This document shows, piece after piece, positions 4,511 through 63,662 of a DNA stretch of 64,000 bases (within the stretch, counting starts at the first letter, position 1; each line of letters starts with the position of its first letter). Source of the stretch: a virus; IMG/VR virus record IMGVR_UViG_3300022839_000011, positions 24,701-88,700 of that record; one strand, written 5' to 3'. The translations under genes and the position numbers were made by a program. The notes beneath the pieces are model-generated. The model saw nothing but the letters and a program-made list of their open reading frames with translations, searched no databases and was not told the origin of the DNA.

Positions 4511-5491
4511 TTAATCAGCGTAGTATATTTCCACACTGTCATCTTTGTATGATGTGCTGTCCATTTTCCACTTTGCATAAAACTGTGTTGGTTGATTCAT
4601 TTTCACCCAATCTTTAACAGCAGCAAGTGTTGGTTTTCCTTTTGCTCCTACAGAGCCTTTTTTAGCTTTAGCAGTGAATTCTTTTATTTTCTTTAGCGTA
4701 TCAAGTTGCCGACCAAAAGGTTGTTTGAAAAATTCGTTATCTGCGCCATTCAAATTTACCGCATAGCTGAATCCATCGTTGCTACCGAACACGGTTTTAG
4801 GCATCTTGGCTTCAAACATGTAGTCTTCTTTGGCAAATTGGAAGCTTGCATTTTTCATAATATTTTGCAGACCACCTACTTGTGCTGGTGTGAATGAATC
4901 ATTTTTTGCATAAAAATCTACAAGACCTTTTCCAAATGCTTTCGACTTTGCATCTTTGCCATTCGCAGCAAGTGACTTGGCGGCTTTTAGGACTTCTGAA
5001 TCATCCATCTTGGCTTCATCAAGACTTTCTTTTAGATTTTCGATGTTCCAACCACGAAGCCATGCTTTCATGAACTCTATCTTAGATTCATGTGATGCCG
5101 TACGCAAAATATCCGACAATGCAGGGTCGAGAACAGGAGCGTTGATCCCAGATTTGAATGCGTTGGCACCCATCTGTTGATACTTTTTAGTTTCATCCGT
5201 TGTAATTTTATACTTTTTGGCTTCATCAAGACTTTCTTTTTTGATTGCTTTAGCAATTGTTTTTCTGCGATTATGTAGATACTCATCTGAATCATCTTCA
5301 TCACCGTCATTGTCAATGTCTTTGTCGTCGCGGTCTTTAAAGTCTTTGCTAAGTTCTTTGGCGTCTACAGCATCGAGTTTCTTTTCTTCTAATGCAGTTT
5401 TAATTCTTTCATTAATAGCTAATGAGAATGCTTCTTTTAAGCCAATTGGATTAGATGCTATACTTGCGATTATTATATCTTTAAGTGACAT
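4511..5491 (-). CDS. modular internal head protein
   Basis: Repeated ESLDEAK and MFEAK putative prohead-protease sites; DKDIDNDGDEDDSDEYLHNRRK motif. Confidence 0.6.
   Translation of the reverse strand: MSLKDIIIASIASNPIGLKEAFSLAINERIKTALEEKKLDAVDAKELSKDFKDRDDKDIDNDGDEDDSDEYLHNRRKTIAKAIKKESLDEAKKYKITTDETKKYQQMGANAFKSGINAPVLDPALSDILRTASHESKIEFMKAWLRGWNIENLKESLDEAKMDDSEVLKAAKSLAANGKDAKSKAFGKGLVDFYAKNDSFTPAQVGGLQNIMKNASFQFAKEDYMFEAKMPKTVFGSNDGFSYAVNLNGADNEFFKQPFGRQLDTLKKIKEFTAKAKKGSVGAKGKPTLAAVKDWVKMNQPTQFYAKWKMDSTSYKDDSVEIYYAD
5010..5240. repeat. 24-bp direct repeat (5010-5033 and 5217-5240) encoding KESLDEAK
   Basis: ttggcttcatcaagactttctttt occurs twice. Confidence 0.85.
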
Positions 5492-18306: not shown

Positions 18307-19290
18307 TTAGCGTTTGGCAAGTGACTTGAAAAATTCCATATCTTCGTCATCTTCAACAGAGTTTGTATCGTATGAAGATTTGTCTTGTGTAGCATTGCTT
18401 TCAAATGAAGATTTTGCTTGCACATTTTCTTTTGGTTTGTCTTCTTTAGATGAAGTTGCAAATCTAGACATATCAACACCTTCATCTTCTTCCGCAGATT
18501 CCGACATTTCTTTGCTGCGCGCATTTCCATTAAGATTCAACACCCGCTGTAGCTTTTCTTTAAGCTCATCGTATGATTTGAACTGCTTGGGATCTATTAC
18601 TTCTTGTAGTGAATGTACGTTGGTAAGTTTGGTTTCATACTCGCCATCATTATCAAAAAGCGATGCTAGATCAGCAAAGTCTGATTTGTCGTAGTTTGGA
18701 TAGCCTTCCACCTTACGTATTTTTAGACGGAAGTTTGCACCATTACCCCAAAGATCAAACGGGTCTACCGCTTTTTCGCCTTCGAATTCCGGATTTGGGG
18801 CTTCTTTTAGCTTATCAAAGATTTTCTTGCCATATTTAAACAAGAACACTTTACCCTCATTTTCTGGTTTTGCAGCATCAGAAACAACATAAACATTAGA
18901 GACGAAGCTTAGTTTGCGTTTTTGCTTTCGCGCCTGTGTACGTTCGGCTGACTTGTCATCCATATTTGAATTCCAAAGATCGCTGTTCATTTCATTAACT
19001 GGGTCGTCTTGCTTTAGAGTAGATAGGCAATTTTCGATGTACCATTGTCCTGTTGGACCTTGGAAGCCATGACTCCAAAGGCGTACAAAAGGAATATCTT
19101 CATCTTCTGGTGCTGGTAAAAATCTAATTACGGCATAACCATTCCCTGCCGTGTCAGTTGTGGGCTTCCAATATTTTCCTTCATCAGGATTTGAATAGCC
19201 TTTAGAGGAAACATCCTCCAACTGTTTGTTCAGCTTATCAAAAGAGCTTGAACGGTTCTTTTTTAGTTTATCAAAATTAAATGCAGCCAT
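18307..19290 (-). CDS. 32: gp32 single-stranded DNA-binding protein
   Basis: GNGYAVIRFLP, HGFQGPTGQWYIENC, RKLS, YGKKIFDK, NYDKS, acidic tail. Confidence 0.97.
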   Translation of the reverse strand: MAAFNFDKLKKNRSSSFDKLNKQLEDVSSKGYSNPDEGKYWKPTTDTAGNGYAVIRFLPAPEDEDIPFVRLWSHGFQGPTGQWYIENCLSTLKQDDPVNEMNSDLWNSNMDDKSAERTQARKQKRKLSFVSNVYVVSDAAKPENEGKVFLFKYGKKIFDKLKEAPNPEFEGEKAVDPFDLWGNGANFRLKIRKVEGYPNYDKSDFADLASLFDNDGEYETKLTNVHSLQEVIDPKQFKSYDELKEKLQRVLNLNGNARSKEMSESAEEDEGVDMSRFATSSKEDKPKENVQAKSSFESNATQDKSSYDTNSVEDDEDMEFFKSLAKR

Positions 19291-20799: not shown

Positions 20800-21102
20800 C
20801 CTTTTTATTAAAGTTGGGACTTGGGTAATACGGCGTCCCTGACCGCAAGAGATTATGCTGCTAGGCGCATCTCTGGTTTTGCATTAGTATTTGCATTTAG
20901 TGTTTTATTCGCGTTAACCCAGCTTATATCGGGGCAACTCCATCCTGCTTAGTCCGTTTGTCGATCCCATTTCATCCCCAGCATAGATACATTGTTACAC
21001 TCATTTAAGAATAATGATATTAAAATATCACCAATGTATCTATGGTGGAGATGTCGGCTTCGAAGCCGAGTCCAAACCGTATTCAGTGAACTTCAACGTC
21101 AC
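20800..21102 (-). ncRNA. ssrA: circularly permuted two-piece tmRNA; tag ANTNAKPEMRLAA (20853-20894); outer ends approximate
   Basis: Acceptor piece ends ..CATCTCCACCA (21043); intervening segment with TAGATACATTG/CAATGTATCTA stem; coding piece starts GGGGATG (20979); G3-U70 pair; tag ends LAA. Confidence 0.93.
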
Positions 21103-21107
21103 GTAGT

Positions 21108-21115
21108 TATTTATA
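21108..21115 (-). promoter_or_regulatory. late promoter driving tmRNA (and possibly hemO)
   Basis: Exact TATAAATA. Confidence 0.75.
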
Positions 21116-21168
21116 CAAAATGGTGGCTAACCTATGGCCACCGCGTGTTTAAGAAACAACCTTTTTTA

Positions 21169-21765
21169 TCAGAAAGTTAGATTTAGAGATAGCTTTGCAT
21201 TTGTGCTTTCTAGGCCATCATCAAAGCTGCGAACCAGACTTGGTGTCAGTGTAACTTTTGATGCAACGGTTACTGGCACACCAACTTCCAGATATCCGCT
21301 TGTGCGTGACCAATCATTGCTGATATTCCAAGTATAACCAACTTCACCAAATACTGAAATCTGGTCATTTAGTGTATAGGTAACACCAACAGATGGGTCA
21401 AAAGAAAAATCGCCACTTGAAAGGTTGTTATTTGCAGTGGAGTATTCCAACCCAACTGTACCATACGCAACGGTCTGATCGGCAACCGCAATTGCAAGAT
21501 TATATTCACCACGAAGACCAATGGTGTCAGCATCAAGATTGTAGTTAAGTGCAGCACGAACTTCTGCATCAGCAGAACCCAATGAATGTGCAAGCCCAGT
21601 AACACCGACTTCAAAATCTGTTAGTGCATTTTGATTAGCGTCAACAGTAAAATCCATCATTCCAGAGTTTACAGTAAGGCCAAAGGTGGCATTATCAAAA
21701 TCATTCGCCATTGCAGATGTGGCCGTACCAAACATAAGTGCGATTGTTGTAATTGTAGTTTTCAT
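21169..21765 (-). CDS. outer-membrane beta-barrel protein
   Basis: Signal peptide ending AMA, alternating beta strands, terminal Phe (LSLNLTF). Confidence 0.8.
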   Translation of the reverse strand: MKTTITTIALMFGTATSAMANDFDNATFGLTVNSGMMDFTVDANQNALTDFEVGVTGLAHSLGSADAEVRAALNYNLDADTIGLRGEYNLAIAVADQTVAYGTVGLEYSTANNNLSSGDFSFDPSVGVTYTLNDQISVFGEVGYTWNISNDWSRTSGYLEVGVPVTVASKVTLTPSLVRSFDDGLESTNAKLSLNLTF

Positions 21766-21841
21766 TTTATTTCCTTAAATTATATAAGTACCCCATAATT
21801 GAGATACGATGGTTAGTAAAATTATTAGTGATTTGGCAGAA

Positions 21842-21976
21842 CTACATTTCAAGCTTCAAAGAAGTTTTACTTAGTTTGTTCATTTCTTCACGAGATGGCA
21901 TAACCTCGTCCCAAACAGAATCAACTTTAGTTGGAGGCGTGATGTTTTCCTTTTTAGATGCATCTTTTTTTGTCAT
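21842..21976 (-). CDS. 44-aa peptide homologous to the C-terminal tail of the ADP-ribosyltransferase (not in ORF track)
   Basis: SD AAAGGA; MTKKDASKKENITPPTKVDSVWDEVMPSREEMNKLSKTSLKLEM. Confidence 0.7.
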   Translation of the reverse strand: MTKKDASKKENITPPTKVDSVWDEVMPSREEMNKLSKTSLKLEM

Positions 21977-22024
21977 GTTATAGTCCTTTCTAAGGGTTAA
22001 TTATAACTATAAACGAAATAGATG

Positions 22025-24172
22025 TCAATACTTAATTTTCATCTTAGACAACTGCAATTCTTTCATTTTTTCGTGCGACAATAGGGTTTCATCCCATACA
22101 GTTTTGGCATCTTTGCCAGTATTGACTTTTGTGGTGTCTTGTACTTTAGCCTCAAACAACATTTTAAGTTCGCTTGGTCCCTTTTTGTATGCCTCATAAA
22201 AGCTACTTGCGCCATTGCCTGTATAAACACCAACCACAAATGGTTTAGTTTTGTTATTCAGTATTGTATGGTACACTTCGGTCAGTCTAATTCTACTAAA
22301 TGGGGGCAACATTATTTCTTTTTCTTTCGACACGCTTGAATAGTTTAATATCGGAATACACTTAGTACCTTTAGGCAAATAGATTTTCATTCGCGTAGAA
22401 TTTGGTTTGTTTCCCATTTTGACATCTGAACTTAATGAGGTGGATAGCCATGCGGGGTCTACGAATACATCACCTGGTTTAAAGTTTTTTTGGCTTGGGA
22501 CTTCACAATTTCGATACACCCACATATCTTCTTCCATCTCTACTGCGTATTCATTATAAAAAGCAAACATGGCATCTGATCGGGGGTCCAATATGAAATT
22601 TCCATCTTTCATAGTAGCCATAGAATTTCTAAGATTTGGATTTATTGACATGAATCCAGAAGCAGTGTAACTTTTGAAAGCTCTTATGGCTTTTTCTTGT
22701 TTGGCTTCTTCCACAGTCAATTTAGATGTGTCTATACTGTTCAAAACACCTTTAAAAATATCATCGAATTTTTTGTAGCCTTCGTTATTTTTTACTACAT
22801 CTATTTTTTTAGAAATGTCTTCGTTAAAATTCACAAATCCGATTGTTCCATCATCCCATTTGGTATCATTATCAGATTTGAAAGCTTCGTTTGTTGTGCT
22901 AATAGCAAATGGCATTTCAAGAACTTTTGCGGACAGAACTTCTCTTTCAAATTGTGTATTTGAAGGCGAATTGTTATCTATTTTCTTCAATTCTTTTAAC
23001 TCTTTAGAAGCCAAATTCGCTTCATATACAGGCATATCTATAGCATCGTTCAATACTTTTTCCCACATTGATTTATTTTTAACACCAACTTTTATTAATC
23101 CATTATCATTAGCCAATCCCATATTAACTATAACTTTTTTCATAGAAGGCGAAATTTCATAGTCATAAACTTGTTTAAATGCTTTTTTGAGATATTTTAC
23201 AACATTAGGATTATCCATCTTTTTTTCTGTCTTACCCATTTTAATCAAGGTATCTAATGTATATGGGTTCATTCTAGTTTTTATTAGGCCAGCAATTGGT
23301 ATGTTATTAGCATCAATTTGGTCATTTGGCGAATAATTTAAGTTAAACTTACCAAGCGGAACTTCTTCAACTTTATCACCAACAACTTCTTTATTTCCTA
23401 ACAAATCAACAACATTGCTGCCGCCTTTGCTCTGAACAGCTTTATTAGAAATGTCATCTATAAGTTTTATATCCGAACTGGCAATCTCATTTCCCAAATC
23501 TAATTTTTTGAATGCAAACAACTTGCTTGGTTTTGTACTCACAGTCTCTTTTTGTCTTTTATACGGGACAGCAATTGTTTCCAAATTTTCACTTGACACG
23601 ATATCTTGTATGTCCATTCCGGTCGGATCAAATTCGAAGTGTTTTGTGAATACAACAGTTTTGAATATTGTTTCTGGTTTGACACTTTTCTTGGTGACAA
23701 AGATGTAATTTCTTGCACCATCTGAAATCTTTTTGACTGGAACTACCCTAAATGTTTGGATGTATGTTTTTTTGATTATTTTTGTTAGAAGACTTTGGTA
23801 TCTTTCTGACCCTGCTTTACTTGGTATGTCAATAATAATACCATCCATTCTATTTTTTATAAATGGATACGAAGCCTCCATGAATTTTAGAAATGTTGCC
23901 AATACTGGTCGGATGTCTGCTGGGGTTTTAAATGACCATGTTCTTTTCTTGACATTCACAATACGATATAGTTCTATCATGTAAACTTTGTCATATGTTG
24001 TCTCTACCAATGACATACCGTAATCGGACCCATTGATAGAAGCAGAAGCATAAATTTGCTTTGGCAGCATAGTATCTTCGGTCATCTGAAACTCAACAGC
24101 GGTGTTAAGTGACTCAAAGAATAATTCTTGGTCTTTGAAATTGATAAAAGACTTCATGTAACTGCGCTCCAT
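22025..24172 (-). CDS. alt: Alt-like virion ADP-ribosyltransferase
   Basis: R-S-E triad: VYRN, WLSTSL, KEKEIMLPP; YTASGF.SINPNLR; MKSF capsid-targeting-like N-terminus; late promoter 24189-24196. Confidence 0.85.
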   Translation of the reverse strand: MERSYMKSFINFKDQELFFESLNTAVEFQMTEDTMLPKQIYASASINGSDYGMSLVETTYDKVYMIELYRIVNVKKRTWSFKTPADIRPVLATFLKFMEASYPFIKNRMDGIIIDIPSKAGSERYQSLLTKIIKKTYIQTFRVVPVKKISDGARNYIFVTKKSVKPETIFKTVVFTKHFEFDPTGMDIQDIVSSENLETIAVPYKRQKETVSTKPSKLFAFKKLDLGNEIASSDIKLIDDISNKAVQSKGGSNVVDLLGNKEVVGDKVEEVPLGKFNLNYSPNDQIDANNIPIAGLIKTRMNPYTLDTLIKMGKTEKKMDNPNVVKYLKKAFKQVYDYEISPSMKKVIVNMGLANDNGLIKVGVKNKSMWEKVLNDAIDMPVYEANLASKELKELKKIDNNSPSNTQFEREVLSAKVLEMPFAISTTNEAFKSDNDTKWDDGTIGFVNFNEDISKKIDVVKNNEGYKKFDDIFKGVLNSIDTSKLTVEEAKQEKAIRAFKSYTASGFMSINPNLRNSMATMKDGNFILDPRSDAMFAFYNEYAVEMEEDMWVYRNCEVPSQKNFKPGDVFVDPAWLSTSLSSDVKMGNKPNSTRMKIYLPKGTKCIPILNYSSVSKEKEIMLPPFSRIRLTEVYHTILNNKTKPFVVGVYTGNGASSFYEAYKKGPSELKMLFEAKVQDTTKVNTGKDAKTVWDETLLSHEKMKELQLSKMKIKY

Positions 24173-24203
24173 ATTTTGTTATTAAAGCTATTTATAAGAT
24201 GAA

Positions 24204-24653
24204 TTATCTAAGTTTAAATTCATCTCTTGTTACACCAAATACGTATTGATCTACCATGTCACCATTTTTGTCCAAAAACGATTCTGACAACACGCCTTCC
24301 TGCTTCCAACCTATTTTGTTTATCATGCGGACAAACTTTTTGTGTGGACTAATTCCGTAAATTTTTCGCAGCGTTTTCATATTTTCAAACATATAATCGG
24401 TTAGATATATCGCAGATGTTAAAGCCTGTTTTGCATTTTTGGTGTCTGAAAACACATTAAGTTTTGCAAGCCAAGGCGTCTCTGGCATCATGTAAAAAAC
24501 CATATCATCTTTTTCAAGTGGAAATGTGATGTTGTTATCCATATCCCTTAACATATCTATAAATATTTCATCTTTTGTCTTGTGTGGGCATTGCATAATC
24601 CATGGATCTATTTTTGCGTGGATAATTTCATATATATGATTGTTATATTTCAT
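24204..24653 (-). CDS. GNAT/RimJ-like acetyltransferase
   Basis: KIGWKQEGVLSESF..G.MVDQYVFGVTRDEF C-terminal motif. Confidence 0.65.
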   Translation of the reverse strand: MKYNNHIYEIIHAKIDPWIMQCPHKTKDEIFIDMLRDMDNNITFPLEKDDMVFYMMPETPWLAKLNVFSDTKNAKQALTSAIYLTDYMFENMKTLRKIYGISPHKKFVRMINKIGWKQEGVLSESFLDKNGDMVDQYVFGVTRDEFKLR

Positions 24654-25141
24654 CCAGAAAATAGCTCTTCTAAACTCATGACAGTGCCGATAGGGTATTG
24701 ATATCTTGTATTGACAATACCGACGCCCAATTTACCTGAATATGTTACTGTGTAACCTTGAATAATTTCTGCCAGCTCGCACACTATAATTGTTTCGCAT
24801 TGTTGTACATTTTGATACCCCATCAAAATGTTATTGCCATCAATCGAACCAATTAAAGAACCTATCACCACTCCAGCAAACGCACCACCATCGTCATTGG
24901 TCGCCAATTTACCTAAAACGCCACCTATGATGGCACCAGCAAGAATGTCACCATTACTAGAACGGTTATTTTGGTACACCGGAATACTTACGTCATAACA
25001 TCTTGTTTCTGGAACTTCGAGATGCCCTATCGTGTAATTGGGCGCTACTTCCATTATACGAACAAAAGTAAATGCATCAAATGCATTTACTTTTGTTGCA
25101 AAAATACATAAAGTAGCGATTGCCGATATTTTTTTAAACAT
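24650..25141 (-). CDS. glycine-zipper 2TM secreted protein
   Basis: Signal peptide; GAIIGGVLG..GAFAGVVIGSLIG. Confidence 0.7.
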   Translation of the reverse strand: MFKKISAIATLCIFATKVNAFDAFTFVRIMEVAPNYTIGHLEVPETRCYDVSIPVYQNNRSSNGDILAGAIIGGVLGKLATNDDGGAFAGVVIGSLIGSIDGNNILMGYQNVQQCETIIVCELAEIIQGYTVTYSGKLGVGIVNTRYQYPIGTVMSLEELFSG

Positions 25142-59846: not shown

Positions 59847-59918
59847 TTCTATACCTTTTTTTCTATCAGAGTACTTATGGTTATGTATAAACTACAGAGT
59901 TGTATTTGTCAACAACCT

Positions 59919-60302
59919 TTATACATTAGTGTCGGGTTTCCAGAGTTTAGCGTATTTCAAAACATTGGGCAATTGAGTGCCGTCTGGATATGGACAAACG
60001 ATTGCGCAACTTTTTTGCGCACCCAGTGTAGTATTTTCATGACCCAGATACACATCAGGTAGTGCAGCAATCTTATCAAATTCTTTTTGGTTTACCCGAA
60101 CAGTAACTTTCTTGAATGAGTTTTCGAGCCAATCAATATATGCAGGGTATTTCGGCAATCCCAACATACGAAAATCGGTGCTGTTGCTGAGAAGGTTGAC
60201 TTCCGAAAACATAATATGCGCTGCAAGAACAGCATGAGCAACCAGAGTTGGAGTCATGTAGTCTGGGAATTCATCAAGAACAGCAATGTAAAGTTTACTC
60301 AT
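59919..60302 (-). CDS. PTH2-like peptidyl-tRNA hydrolase
   Basis: KLYIAV..LVAHAV..W....FKKVTVRV..P..L pattern. Confidence 0.6.
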   Translation of the reverse strand: MSKLYIAVLDEFPDYMTPTLVAHAVLAAHIMFSEVNLLSNSTDFRMLGLPKYPAYIDWLENSFKKVTVRVNQKEFDKIAALPDVYLGHENTTLGAQKSCAIVCPYPDGTQLPNVLKYAKLWKPDTNV

Positions 60303-60478
60303 TTTCACTTCCTCAACTTTTAACTCTACAAAATCAGTTTCTTGGGCAATACGAGCAACAGTAGCATCCATGGCAATTCTCCTTTGTCTACTGGGTATAG
60401 TATCAATATATATTGATTCTCAGCAAATGTCAAACTTTTATAAATAGAAGAAGAAATTAACCAGCATGGAGAAAAATA

Positions 60479-60886
60479 ATGTCAAACCCACTACTTAGAA
60501 CAATAATTTTTGAAATGGTAGGCGACTACCTAAATGAATCGCACGAAGATTATTTGGTTAAATCTATCTTCGAAGAAGTTTCTTCTGAAACTTGGGACGC
60601 AATCCAAGAAGCAATTTTGAATGAGTTGAGCCCCAAAACACTTGAAAAATACAGGAAAAAAGCTGGTAAACAAGCTGAAAAAGCTTGGGATACAATGAAG
60701 ACACAGCAAAGAGTATCTGCAAGAGCAGATTCAAGTGGTTTTAAGTACCCAAAAGGTAGCGGAGTCAGAACCGATTATGATCAAAAATCATCAGACGCTT
60801 GGGCAAAAGCTAGAGCCGCAGAAAAGTTGCATGACAAAAGAGGTGATGGTTATAATCTAGCTGGTAAAAAGCTGGAAACAAAATAA
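60479..60886 (+). CDS. putative internal head protein
   Basis: Late promoter at 60439-60446; LRTIIFEMV..YLNES; LNELSPKTLEKY. Confidence 0.65.
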   Translation: MSNPLLRTIIFEMVGDYLNESHEDYLVKSIFEEVSSETWDAIQEAILNELSPKTLEKYRKKAGKQAEKAWDTMKTQQRVSARADSSGFKYPKGSGVRTDYDQKSSDAWAKARAAEKLHDKRGDGYNLAGKKLETK

Positions 60887-61493
60887 ATTTATTAATCTAA
60901 GAAAAAGGAGCCAAATCTCCTTTTTCTTTATCAATTATTTTGTTCGGTGCTAACTATAAAGTCTTCGAGTGTCATCATATCGTGATCAGAGTCAGCACCA
61001 TTGTACCAGTACTCGCAATATACATTTTAGTCATAATGGGCCTCAACTTTCAGATACAATTGTAAAATCATCTAATGACATGGCAGTAGTAAAGTCTCGA
61101 AATCTTGAATGTGAAGTAAATTTTACACCAATTTCAATTTTGTGATTATAGGGGTGTGCTTTGTAGCCCCCGCCTCTACCGTTTGTTGTTATAGTATACA
61201 ACATGTTATTTTTTGTATATCGAAATATTTTCATAATATCATCCTTAGTCTATATAGATGGTATATCCGCGCGATGCTGCTTCGTAATCTACTCGCACCT
61301 CGGAACCGTCGTCTTGAATCTTATATAACTGCACCGCATGATCGCTTTCTAATAGATCTGACATCTCGCTCTTGATATTTTCCAAGTTATCTGATACATA
61401 TGGCCTAATAGATACACCGCCGCCGTCATATCCTTGTGCTTTAATTCTATACATTATTTTTCCTAATCTACTAAGTTATATAGTCTCATGTCA

Positions 61494-61790
61494 TTAATAG
61501 TTAAAAATTCCGAACGGCCAGTTACCTTGTATACAGCCCATAGAATCAAAAACATAGGTTCTCGTTTCTGTGATAATTTCGACATCATTTTTATTGATGT
61601 TACCGTATTCTATTTGCTCACCAAGCATATTGACTACAGTATCTGAGTACACACGAATATTCAGAAAATCATTTACTTTGACTAATTCCAATACTTTTTC
61701 TACCAAAAGATTTGGCATAAGATTGAATTGCGTATCTGTATACTCTGTTTTCATATTTGGTTTTGCATTTCCGACATATACAGTAATCAT
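61494..61790 (-). CDS. hypothetical protein
   Basis: NWPFGIF end; promoter upstream. Confidence 0.55.
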   Translation of the reverse strand: MITVYVGNAKPNMKTEYTDTQFNLMPNLLVEKVLELVKVNDFLNIRVYSDTVVNMLGEQIEYGNINKNDVEIITETRTYVFDSMGCIQGNWPFGIFNY

Positions 61791-61840
61791 TTTGAACCTC
61801 TTTGTTTACAGTTTCTTATACAAGATATATATACCCATGT

Positions 61841-62772
61841 CAATCACTTATTGTCTTTTATTAATATAATTATGCGGCAGGACTGAAATTGGTCACTATT
61901 CCTTTGTCGCTATGAAACGATTCCACAGATATACGGTAATATGCGGCAAGAAAAATATCGTTATTATGAAAAAAAATACAGTAATAATAATAACAAAAAC
62001 TACTATATCATAAAAAAATGTAAAAATAAGTAAGAGCACAAATAGTAATATAATTAAGCAGAATGCTGCATCTTCAATGTTGATATGTGGTATTTTCATT
62101 TGATTCTCTTTTTATGATATATATAACAATCACTTATTATCTTTTATTAAAACCAATGACTGCTCTTGCGTTTCTTTGTTAGGTTTGGTCATCTAAGATT
62201 AGAAAATTGTACCTTGGGTTTTGGCATCGATAAGGTTGGCACCTTCAAGATCAGCACCACTAAGATCAGCACCACTAAGATCAGCATAGCGAATGTTGGC
62301 ACCACTAAGATTGGCATCAACAAGATTTGCACCACGAAGATTGGCGTCTGGACCGATTGCGTAACCATTAACAATATTCATTGTGTTTCTCCTCTATGTT
62401 TATTTTTACTGTTTTAATATAAGAAAAATTTGTAAGTTTGTCAAGTGTTATTTTAGTAAGCCTTCAACAAGAAGCCTCAAATGCTTTATTACGGATGCCA
62501 GTCCATTCAAACCACGCAGACGCTTCAGTAATCTCCAAATTAAGTGTAGAGTTCTGAACGAACTGCTTGGCATCAGACTCCATTAGGAATACACCAACAA
62601 CAGTATTAAAGTCTGTTTGGTGGTTCTTAGGGATATAGGCTACATACAGCATGGTTTATCTCCTTTGATTTGATTTATTCACAAGTATTTGTTTGGAAGT
62701 CATCTCTGACCACATCAACTTAGTCCTTGATGTTATTTTTAATCACTTATTATCTTTTAGTAAAGCCAATGC
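61841..62772. repeat. three ~25-30 bp dispersed repeats (near 61841, 62127 and 62741)
   Basis: aatcacttatt(a/g)tctttta(t/g)taa. Confidence 0.7.
62199..62381 (-). CDS. truncated pentapeptide-repeat paralog of 54189..54626
   Basis: Same [11 protein letters not shown] start; lacks the C-terminal domain. Confidence 0.75.
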
Positions 62773-63030
62773 GGCAGCCGATTCAATATTCAACTTTTTG
62801 AGATCTGATCTTATATAGGCAAGTTCGGTTTCGCTATACATACTGGTTCCGTATATAGAATTTAGATATTCTTTTTGGCTGGAACGGGACTTTCGAATAT
62901 ACTTTTCAGTATATTCTTTTGCTTCTTCTGGCGGAAAGTGCTTCAAATAATATAACATAATAAGGGTCTCGATGCTCGGTTCATCAGTACCCGCACCTAT
63001 ATTTGGTTGGTATTTGAAAATATTATTCAC
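62743..63030 (-). CDS. hypothetical protein
   Basis: Promoter and SD upstream. Confidence 0.5.
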   Translation of the reverse strand: MNNIFKYQPNIGAGTDEPSIETLIMLYYLKHFPPEEAKEYTEKYIRKSRSSQKEYLNSIYGTSMYSETELAYIRSDLKKLNIESAAALALLKDNK

Positions 63031-63662
63031 ATCATATATCCTTCTGTTTCATATTATTAAGTGTTGCTATACTATATACAGTTCACAATGTCAACACAAG
63101 TTATTATTTTTATAGATCACTGTAATTAATAATGGTTACTGTCTCAGGGTCTGCCCATATAATGCGACGTTCAACGACCCAACTTTTGAAAATCTTAATA
63201 CCAAACAGTCGTCGTTGAATTTCTATATACTGGTGCGGGCCACCATCTGGTCCGCCGTTTACCACTTTGCACAGTCCAGTAGTTTCTATTTTTTTCCAGC
63301 GTCTTAAAAACGCTGACATTTTGTAAGCTTGTTTCATTTTATCCTCTATTGCTATAATTAATAAATCTATATGAGTGAGAAATGTATTCAAGTTCTACTT
63401 CTAACTATACGGCTATAATATCATATTTCTTTTGTTTTTTTAGATTAAGATATATACGCATTATTTTCAGATACATTTTCATATTATTAATGCTATGTTT
63501 TAATAAGAGTCGGTCCTATGTTTTCACCTAACATTTTAACTGTTTTTTACAGTAGTATTAACAGAAAACATCTTTGGAATATATGGGCAGAAGTATCCGC
63601 CGCTGTTGTCTTCAAAAATTCCCCACCGTGCGCAGACAGTCTCAGATTAACAAAGCGATATA

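What the first reader, a model, noticed from the sequence alone, without database searches (positions are those of the whole stretch)
21842..22150. Free-standing peptide duplicates the ADP-ribosyltransferase C-tail: possible cis and trans inhibitor
Seen: the Alt-like tail after LFE|AK reads KDAKTVWDETLLSHEKMKELQLSKMKIKY. The unannotated next ORF reads TKVDSVWDEVMPSREEMNKLSKTSLKLEM (shared VWDE...S.E.M..L....K) and has its own SD. Known: T4 Alt is processed by the gp21 protease, which cuts after L/I-x-E. Inference: the tail is an autoinhibitory peptide removed in the capsid, and the separate peptide neutralises injected or superinfecting enzyme, forming a phage toxin-immunity pair.
Basis: partly seen in the sequence, partly recalled or inferred. 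Interest (0 to 1): 0.75.

Follow-up and report, generated by a model that had tools for sequence, protein, structure and literature searches.

The report
Early-made copy of an injected enzyme's propeptide
A marine T4-like phage carries, right behind the gene for its head-packaged ADP-ribosylating enzyme, a tiny conserved gene that copies the enzyme's removable C-terminal tail but is switched on early, so it probably binds and regulates the tail-less enzyme once it has been injected.

Summary

- **The pair.** The 44-aa ORF (21842-21976, minus strand) is colinear with the last 41 residues of the 715-aa Alt-like ADP-ribosyltransferase (ART, 22025-24172). It is that tail's only look-alike in the 88.7-kb record.
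- **The tail is probably a propeptide.** It follows a conserved [LIMF]-x-E site, and T4 Alt is known to be cut by gp21 at both ends.
- **The copy is a selected gene.** Free-standing copies occur in at least three ART lineages and seven database clusters, and each resembles particular ART tails. In locus L011, copy and tail share 17 identical residues while their DNA differs at six sites, all synonymous.
- **Timing differs.** The ART sits behind a T4 late-promoter motif. The small ORF has a perfect TTGACA-N17-TATAAT promoter, conserved in relatives.
- **Structure.** AlphaFold places the shared Trp-containing core on the catalytic domain with fair confidence. ART tails end in a basic tip that the free peptides lack.

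Best reading (about 45%): an early-made propeptide mimic binds the injected, processed enzyme and modulates it, probably switching it off. Inhibition is not shown, and unprocessed T4 Alt is active. This is a new variant of known kinds and is readily testable.

The parts
24189..24196 (-). TATAAATA, the T4-type late promoter motif upstream of the ART gene
   Evidence: the motif lies about 20 nt before the first ATG (24172) and about 35 nt before the ATG at codon 6, where the homologues start. The window has 17 copies on the minus strand and 5 on the plus strand.
22025..24172 (-). Alt-like ADP-ribosyltransferase gene, 715 aa. The likely true start is Met6 at 24157.
   Evidence: Pfam PF03496, E 6e-11. 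There are 28 homologues of 583-856 aa. The AlphaFold model matches C3/VIP2/ExoS/Vis-type ARTs with Z 12-14. R554, S577-T578 and E617-x-E619 are invariant.
24113..24172 (-). Candidate N-terminal propeptide (capsid-targeting type), ending at E20
   Evidence: [LIMF]-x-E followed by [SA]-L is kept at this position in 26 of 28 homologues. The window itself reads F-F-E|S-L. T4 Alt is cut at ITE-6.
22193..22720 (-). Catalytic ART domain (about residues 485-660)
   Evidence: Pfam match to residues 495-643. Structural alignments end at about residue 652-660.
22151..22159 (-). L672-F673-E674, candidate prohead-protease site in front of the tail
   Evidence: E674 is nearly invariant and is preceded at -2 by L/I/M/F in almost all homologues. 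It lies at the end of a helix, just before a linker with pLDDT below 50.
22028..22150 (-). C-terminal tail (candidate propeptide), residues 675-715: a charged linker, a Trp-containing core (about 22052-22105) and a basic tip (22028-22051)
   Evidence: The motif is conserved down to 27-31% ART identity. The core has pLDDT 75-79, with beta-bridges, both in the full model and in the domain-only model. The basic tip carries +2 to +7 in all ART tails.
22000..22028 (-). TTGACA-N17-TATAAT, a perfect sigma-70 consensus promoter overlapping the ART stop codon
   Evidence: 12 of 12 matches, the only such site in 21100-24700. A relaxed pattern matches 3 times in 64 kb against 0.19 expected. TTGAC[AT]-N17-TATAnn sits at the same place in L002-L004, L008, L011 and L018/L019.
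21984..21989 (-). Shine-Dalgarno AAAGGA, 7 nt before the ATG of the small ORF
   Evidence: Read directly from the sequence.
21842..21976 (-). 44-aa free-standing paralogue of the ART tail (Trp22 at 21911-21913)
   Evidence: Colinear with the whole tail (alignment A7). Kept with 0-2 nt changes in three 91% relatives. Homologous peptides are present in L008 and L011, and seven small-protein clusters were found by profile search.

Best explanation
**What it is.** The 715-aa protein is a head-packaged, injected ADP-ribosyltransferase built like T4 Alt. It is made late and carries short propeptides at both ends that the prohead protease removes after [L/I]-x-E. The C-terminal propeptide has three parts: a charged linker, a Trp-containing core that folds back onto the catalytic domain, and a basic tip.

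**The small gene.** The 44-aa gene just downstream is a free-standing paralogue of that propeptide. It keeps the linker and the Trp core but lacks the basic tip. It has its own ribosome-binding site and a consensus sigma-70 (early) promoter.

**Proposed mechanism.** The virion delivers the tail-less enzyme with the DNA. Host RNA polymerase then makes the peptide at once. The peptide occupies the site on the catalytic domain that the propeptide core used to fill. It thereby modulates the enzyme, most likely switching it off after a short burst, and would do the same to enzyme arriving with a superinfecting particle.

**Shown here:** paralogy, conservation under purifying selection, co-variation with cognate tails, the promoter and cleavage-site motifs, and the predicted cis-docking.

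**Inferred:** cleavage in this family, binding in trans, and the direction of the effect (inhibition).
For: - **Paralogy beyond chance.** Shown in three independent ART lineages. The peptides are colinear with the entire tail, 44-46 aa against 41-48 aa.
- **Selection.** In L011 the shared 17 residues are encoded by DNA differing at 6 of 51 positions, all third-position synonymous. P is about 5e-5 under neutrality.
- **A family, specific to this enzyme.** A profile of tails and peptides against 1.84 billion representatives found only ART-length proteins (matching at the C-terminus), seven clusters of 44-60-aa proteins, and two spurious repeat proteins.
- **Co-variation.** Peptides match particular ART tails at 20/31 to 24/30 identity. 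The L011 peptide matches its own tail (score 110) far better than the tails of other clades (24-49).
- **Timing.** TATAAATA lies before the ART. A perfect TTGACA-N17-TATAAT lies before the peptide and is conserved in position in relatives.
- **Propeptide status.** Both [LIMF]-x-E sites are conserved. T4 Alt is cut at ITE-6 and LTE-619. A PF03420 protease is encoded in relatives.
- **Docking.** The Trp core has pLDDT 75-79 with beta-bridges, next to a linker with pLDDT below 50. This holds when only residues 481-715 are modelled (pTM 0.83).
- **A systematic difference between the copies.** All ART tails end in a basic tip; the peptides do not.
- **A parallel in the same slot.** In a lineage without the peptide, the position after the ART holds a Macro domain and a SLOG protein, which are ADP-ribose-related functions.
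Against: - No binding, inhibition or toxicity was tested.
- The tools gave no coordinates, so it is unknown whether the docked core lies near the NAD pocket.
- AlphaFold confidence for a short amphipathic segment is weak evidence.
- Full-length, unprocessed T4 Alt is active from a plasmid and as recombinant protein. T4's propeptide is unrelated in sequence, but it shows that a C-terminal propeptide need not be inhibitory.
- Cleavage at E674 is inferred from a three-residue motif. The window's own 88.7-kb fragment does not contain the protease gene.
- The early promoter may exist mainly for the downstream genes, since no terminator follows the small ORF.
- The peptide is absent from Vibrio phage relatives that keep the tail, so it is not essential to the enzyme.
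Confidence: 0.45

Rival explanations
1. **Shared outside partner.** The Trp core does not act on the enzyme. It binds a third party, either a host protein or a phage head component. After cleavage the propeptide may stay in the head, held by its basic tip on DNA, and be injected as a small effector of its own. The early gene then supplies more of the same peptide. Tail and peptide co-vary because both follow the same host or phage target.
For: - T4 keeps some cleavage peptides in the head (table).
- The authors who found the C-terminal cut of Alt list targeting and tethering as possible roles.
- Unprocessed T4 Alt is active.
- The basic tip is the one systematic difference between the two copies.
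- In ExoS and ExoT, which are among the best structural matches, the segment after the ART core binds a host cofactor. The structural matches are; the cofactor role is from general knowledge.
Against: - In the library searched, the motif occurs only on this ART family and on the small peptides, not on other packaged proteins. That argues against a general head-targeting signal.
- AlphaFold docks the core on the ART domain itself.
- An early promoter is an odd fit for a head-assembly role.
Confidence: 0.25
2. **Release or exchange factor.** The cut propeptide stays bound to the enzyme through its Trp core. Its basic tip tethers the enzyme to the packaged DNA so that the enzyme leaves the head with it. 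The early peptide has the same core but no basic tip. It displaces the tether and frees, or re-targets, the enzyme in the new cell. In this reading the peptide activates rather than inhibits.
For: - The core is shared, but the end is basic in ART tails (+2 to +7) and neutral or acidic in peptides (-7 to +3).
- The core is predicted to be docked, while the cut site lies in a flexible linker some 15 residues away.
- The peptide has an early promoter.
Against: - This is entirely inferential.
- No evidence exists that the tip binds DNA or that the cut tail remains bound.
- T4 propeptides are generally thought to leave the head.
Confidence: 0.12
3. **Relic.** The small ORF is the leftover 3' end of a lost tandem ART paralogue or of a local duplication. 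It stays open by chance in lysine- and glutamate-rich sequence and has no function of its own. The promoter serves the downstream genes.
For: - T4 has exactly such relics. Its alt.-1 and alt.-2 are annotated as a broken duplication of the first part of alt, and an earlier scan note describes them as the remnant of a full-length second gene.
- The antisense frame across the small ORF is also open.
- No terminator separates the small ORF from the next gene.
Against: - An intact ORF of 44-60 aa with a start codon is kept in at least nine sequence clusters and three ART lineages. A ribosome-binding site could be read in the loci with DNA context.
- All six DNA differences in L011 are synonymous.
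- Every copy begins just upstream of the linker and core.
- No relative examined has a second full-length ART downstream.
Confidence: 0.1

Closest known systems
Bacteriophage T4 Alt (gpAlt), the head-packaged and injected ADP-ribosyltransferase with N- and C-terminal propeptides
   Same: - About 700 aa, with a C-terminal R-S-ExE ART domain and a late promoter.
- An [L/I]-x-E site shortly after the start, and another 41-63 residues before the end.
- T4's cuts at ITE-6 and LTE-619 are experimental.
- The role of the C-terminal propeptide is an open question in T4 too.
   Different: - No detectable sequence similarity outside the ART motifs.
- T4's C-terminal propeptide has no second copy anywhere in the T4 genome.
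- T4 has no known partner peptide.
T4 alt.-1 / alt.-2 (broken duplicate of the first part of alt)
   Same: Small ORFs directly downstream of the ART gene that copy part of it.
   Different: - They copy the N-terminal part and are a decaying remnant of a full-length paralogue.
- Here the copy is the C-terminal propeptide. It is under purifying selection, has its own early promoter, and recurs across lineages.
Free-standing propeptide-like inhibitors of proteases (for example subtilisin-propeptide-like and cathepsin-propeptide-like inhibitors). This comparison is from general knowledge and was not tested here.
   Same: A small separate protein, homologous to the enzyme's own removable propeptide, that can rebind the mature enzyme.
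   Different: - The enzyme class is different (ADP-ribosyltransferase).
- Inhibition is not shown.
- The setting, a virus-injected enzyme with a temporal switch, is new.
ART toxin-immunity pairs (for example Tre1-Tri1, PDB 6dre; the Listeria ART-ARH pair, PDB 8za7) and the proenzyme form of the mosquitocidal toxin MTX. The roles are from general knowledge.
   Same: - The ART fold is the same (Z 12-13).
- The partner is encoded in an adjacent gene.
- There is precedent for a short peptide segment blocking an ART active site, and for activation by proteolysis.
   Different: - The immunity proteins are unrelated folded proteins, often hydrolases, and are co-expressed with the toxin.
- Here the partner is a 44-aa copy of the enzyme's own tail, under a different temporal promoter.

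Membership tests
T4 Alt-type head-packaged injected ART | R-S-ExE ADP-ribosyltransferase domain | tested here: met
   PF03496, E 6e-11. Fold Z 12-14 to C3, Vis, ExoS and iota toxin. R554, S577-T578 and E617/E619 are invariant.
T4 Alt-type head-packaged injected ART | N-terminal propeptide ending in L/I-x-E | tested here: inconclusive
   [LIMF]-x-E|[SA]L is conserved in 26 of 28 homologues. The window reads F-F-E. Cleavage was not measured.
T4 Alt-type head-packaged injected ART | C-terminal propeptide removed after L-x-E | tested here: inconclusive
   L-F-E674 is present and the position is conserved. The T4 precedent is LTE-619. Cleavage cannot be tested with these tools.
T4 Alt-type head-packaged injected ART | Late transcription | tested here: met
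   TATAAATA at 24189-24196, upstream of the start. This is motif evidence only.
T4 Alt-type head-packaged injected ART | Sequence homology to T4 Alt over its length | tested here: not met
   BLASTP E above 4. hhalign aligns only the ART motif region, with probability 6%.
T4 Alt-type head-packaged injected ART | Presence in virions and ejection into the host | not testable with these tools
   This needs virion proteomics of a cultured relative.
ART toxin-immunity pair | Adjacent, co-directional genes | tested here: met
   A 48-nt gap on the same strand. The same arrangement is found in L008 and L011.
ART toxin-immunity pair | The partner binds and neutralises the ART | not testable with these tools
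   Only cis-docking of the homologous tail is predicted.
ART toxin-immunity pair | Co-expression of toxin and immunity | tested here: not met
   The two genes have different promoter types, late and sigma-70. Read-through from the late promoter remains possible.
Propeptide-like free-standing regulator | A separate protein homologous to the enzyme's own propeptide | tested here: met
Propeptide-like free-standing regulator | The propeptide itself inhibits the enzyme | not testable with these tools
   Indirect evidence is against a general rule, because unprocessed T4 Alt is active.
Relic of a tandem paralogue (as T4 alt.-1/alt.-2) | Decay: broken frames, no constraint | tested here: not met
   Intact ORFs are kept in all clusters seen. 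All 6 differences in L011 are synonymous.

The most novel reading that the evidence does not exclude
A phage uses a free-standing, early-expressed copy of an injected enzyme's own propeptide as a built-in timer. The enzyme is uncapped by the head protease, acts for the first minutes of infection, and is then re-capped in trans. This would be the first propeptide-derived regulator of an ADP-ribosyltransferase, and the first dedicated off-switch for a virion-delivered phage effector. It would also assign a function to the C-terminal propeptide of Alt-type enzymes.
Probability: 0.35. Interest if true: 0.8.

Novelty: new variant of a known kind. Interest (0 to 1): 0.62.

Why it matters
**An open question becomes testable.** Alt-type enzymes are the classic example of proteins that a phage injects with its DNA, and they are now also known as anti-defence factors. 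[quoted passage not shown] This family offers a natural experiment. The same segment exists both attached and free, under different temporal control, with co-varying sequences.

**Consequences if the peptide binds the mature enzyme.**
- It would show how a phage limits the action of an injected effector.
- It would give a compact, specific peptide regulator of a C3/ExoS-type ADP-ribosyltransferase fold.

**Consequences if it binds something else.** It would reveal a new small early effector whose injected twin is a processing by-product.

Tried and rejected
**Searches that found nothing**
- Nucleotide and protein searches of GenBank phages with the region and with two peptides. Only six Vibrio phages carry a distant ART.
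- PHROGs has no family for the ART or the peptides.
- The word-index search with the peptide found only near-identical sequences.
- The metagenome scan gave one locus.
- Scans of IMG/VR gave little new: with P0011 none, with P0008 only known loci, with a peptide alignment only L011.
- The protein atlas gave only a sub-threshold hit, score 0.77.

- The structure tool returns no coordinates and accepts no complexes, so the docking site and binding in trans could not be examined.

**Readings rejected**
- A general C-terminal head-targeting signal. The motif was found on no other protein family.
- The antisense 51-aa ORF as the real gene. The homology, ribosome-binding site, promoter and synonymous-only changes all fit the minus-strand frame.
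- The small ORFs after the ART in L010 and L018/L019 as significant tail copies. Their scores of 24 and 27 are within shuffles. They may be degenerate homologues.
Full report
**What is there**

- The window comes from an 88.7-kb IMG/VR virus record estimated to be 42% complete. It is a T4-like phage. A gp32-like gene lies at 18307-19290, and most genes are on the minus strand.
- ORF 22025-24172 (-) encodes 715 aa with a C-terminal ADP-ribosyltransferase domain (PF03496, E 6e-11).
- 48 nt downstream lies ORF 21842-21976 (-), 44 aa. AAAGGA sits 7 nt before its ATG.

**Is the similarity more than chance?**

- BLASTP aligns 23 residues without gaps, 9 identical and 16 similar.
- Among all 2,540 six-frame ORFs of the record, the ART tail is the peptide's best non-self hit (blastp E 0.008; phmmer E 0.087).
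- None of 2,000 shuffles reaches the score.
- Both V-W-D-E motifs begin exactly 24 residues before the stop, and nothing else in the record has the motif near an end.
- This is suggestive by itself. The relatives settle it.

**The tail is a conserved module that looks like a propeptide**

- Twenty-eight homologues of 583-856 aa were found, down to 27-31% identity, including six Vibrio phages.
- Two short sites are kept in nearly all of them:
  - [LIMF]-x-E followed by [SA]-L near residue 20;
  - [LIMF]-x-E at the position of E674.
- After the second site comes a charged linker of variable length. Then comes a motif with an almost invariant Trp and Ser, and then a basic end of the G-K-I-K-I type.
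- T4 Alt is cut by the prohead protease at ITE-6. By mass spectrometry it is also cut at LTE-619, which removes 63 C-terminal residues. [quoted passage not shown]
- A gp21-type protease (PF03420) is encoded on the contig of the 65% relative and in the Vibrio phage. It is not in the window's own fragment.
- The enzyme is Alt-like in architecture but not in sequence.

**The small ORF is a gene family**

- Three 91% relatives keep it with 0-2 nucleotide changes.
- In L008 (ART 65% identical) a 46-aa ORF in the same place carries the same core and aligns with its own ART tail over nearly its whole length (score 79; 0 of 2,000 shuffles).
- In L011 (ART 34% identical) a 46-aa ORF shares 17 consecutive identical residues with its own ART tail (score 110). 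The encoding DNA differs at 6 of 51 positions, and all six are third-position synonymous changes. Under neutral change this has a probability of about 5e-5.
- So both copies are translated and constrained, and the copy is not a fresh duplication.
- All peptides are colinear with the complete tail from just after the cut site (alignment A7).
- A profile of tails plus peptides was searched against 1.84 billion representative proteins. At E of 1e-3 or better it found only:
  - ART-length proteins, matching at their C-terminus;
  - seven clusters of 44-60-aa proteins;
  - two obviously spurious repeat proteins.
- The free peptides resemble particular ART tails: 24/30, 21/28 and 20/31 identical.
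- Within the window/L008 clade the peptides are closer to each other than to the tails. The L011 peptide, in contrast, is far closer to its own tail than to any other peptide clade.
- This pattern means either repeated duplication or gene conversion. Either way, selection keeps a free copy matched to the tail.
- The peptide is not universal:
  - a complete Vibrio phage genome has no second copy;
  - L013/L023 has a Macro domain and a SLOG protein after the ART instead;
  - the small ORFs in L010 and L018/L019 are not significantly tail-like.

**Different timing**

- TATAAATA, the T4 late-promoter motif, lies just upstream of the ART start.
- Between the ART stop and the small ORF lies TTGACA-N17-TATAAT, a 12-of-12 sigma-70 consensus overlapping the stop codon.
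- A relaxed form of that promoter occurs three times in 64 kb against 0.19 expected.
- TTGAC[AT]-N17-TATAnn is at the same place in L002-L004, L008, L011 and L018/L019. It occurs only once or twice in each of those 5-7-kb loci.
- These are motif-level inferences. They fit an enzyme made late for packaging and a peptide made by host polymerase as soon as the DNA enters.
- No terminator follows the small ORF, so the promoter also serves downstream genes. However, those genes differ between the window and L011, while the promoter and peptide stay with the ART.

**Structure**

- The full-length AlphaFold model has mean pLDDT 72.6. In it, residues 674-686 fall below 50. Residues 691-700 rise to 79, with a beta-bridge at 696 and a helix at 700-707.
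- A model of residues 481-715 alone has mean pLDDT 84.9 and pTM 0.83. It keeps the same picture: linker below 50, core at 75-79, bridges at two positions.
- The canonical ART fold ends near residue 652-660, so the tail is an addition that is predicted to pack on the catalytic domain.
- No coordinates were available, so the site is unknown.

**The one systematic difference between tail and peptide**

- After the core, every ART tail ends in 8-14 residues with net charge +2 to +7.
- The peptides have 9-23 residues there, with net charge -7 to +3.

**Reading**

The best-supported account is a propeptide mimic. The virion delivers the processed enzyme. The early peptide takes the place of the removed core on the catalytic domain and modulates the enzyme, most likely turning it off.

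- In favour:
  - the motif is specific to this enzyme family;
  - the core is predicted to dock on the enzyme;
  - the timing fits;
  - peptide and tail co-vary.
- Against a simple inhibitory tail: unprocessed T4 Alt works from a plasmid and as recombinant protein (PMC13716836).
- Rivals:
  - a shared outside partner, with the cut tail itself possibly an injected peptide;
  - an exchange or release role based on the basic tip;
  - a functionless relic like T4 alt.-1/alt.-2, which the selection data argue against.

**Comparison and novelty**

- Known pieces are Alt's two propeptides, ART-immunity gene pairs, and free-standing propeptide-like inhibitors of proteases.
- I found no description of a free-standing copy of an ART propeptide, or of a partner for an injected phage enzyme.
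- I rate it a new variant of known kinds.
- The gene and its paralogy are solid. The mechanism is a testable inference.

Noticed in passing
window 21169-21765 (-); L008 4733-5344: A phage-encoded outer-membrane beta-barrel protein of 198 aa with a signal peptide (PF13505, E 1.6e-7). It lies directly after the small ORF and is conserved in the 65% relative. It is probably in the same early transcript.
   Followed up: partly
window 22733-23272 (ART residues 301-480): The middle of the ART differs at 17% of nucleotides from three relatives whose first 300 codons differ at only 0.6-1%, and whose tail and peptide are nearly identical. This is either a mosaic or a fast-evolving central region, possibly the target-recognition part.
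   Followed up: partly
L013 3875-4719 (also L023): In a 31% ART relative without the peptide, the gene overlapping the ART stop encodes a Macro domain (PF01661, E 1.2e-7). It is followed by a YspA/SLOG protein (PF10686). Together these form an ADP-ribose-handling module in the same slot.
   Followed up: partly
L027 (T4, AF158101) 5066-5451: T4 alt.-1 starts with the same six-residue propeptide as Alt (M-E-L-I-T-E) and copies its first 58 or so residues. alt.-2 copies the next segment. T4's 63-residue C-terminal propeptide has no second copy in the genome.
   Followed up: yes
window 59900-63100 (-): Five matches to TTGAC[AT]-N17-TATAnn cluster on the minus strand, out of ten on that strand and one on the other. 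This is probably an early-gene region with strong host-type promoters.
   Followed up: no
window 24204-24653 (-): The 149-aa gene upstream of the ART gives a weak match to a PHROG annotated as head morphogenesis (phrog_651, E 1.8e-4).
   Followed up: no
window 21828-21983 (+): A 51-aa ORF is open on the strand opposite the small ORF, and the same is true in L008 and L011. This is a composition effect of lysine- and glutamate-rich coding sequence, not a gene.
   Followed up: partly
L010 5070-5189; L019 2999-3217: Small ORFs also follow the ART in these lineages. One overlaps the stop as ATGA and the other lies behind a TTGACT-N17-TATAAC promoter. Both carry an S-[RY]-E-E-[LVM] stretch but no Trp. 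They may be degenerate relatives of the peptide.
   Followed up: partly
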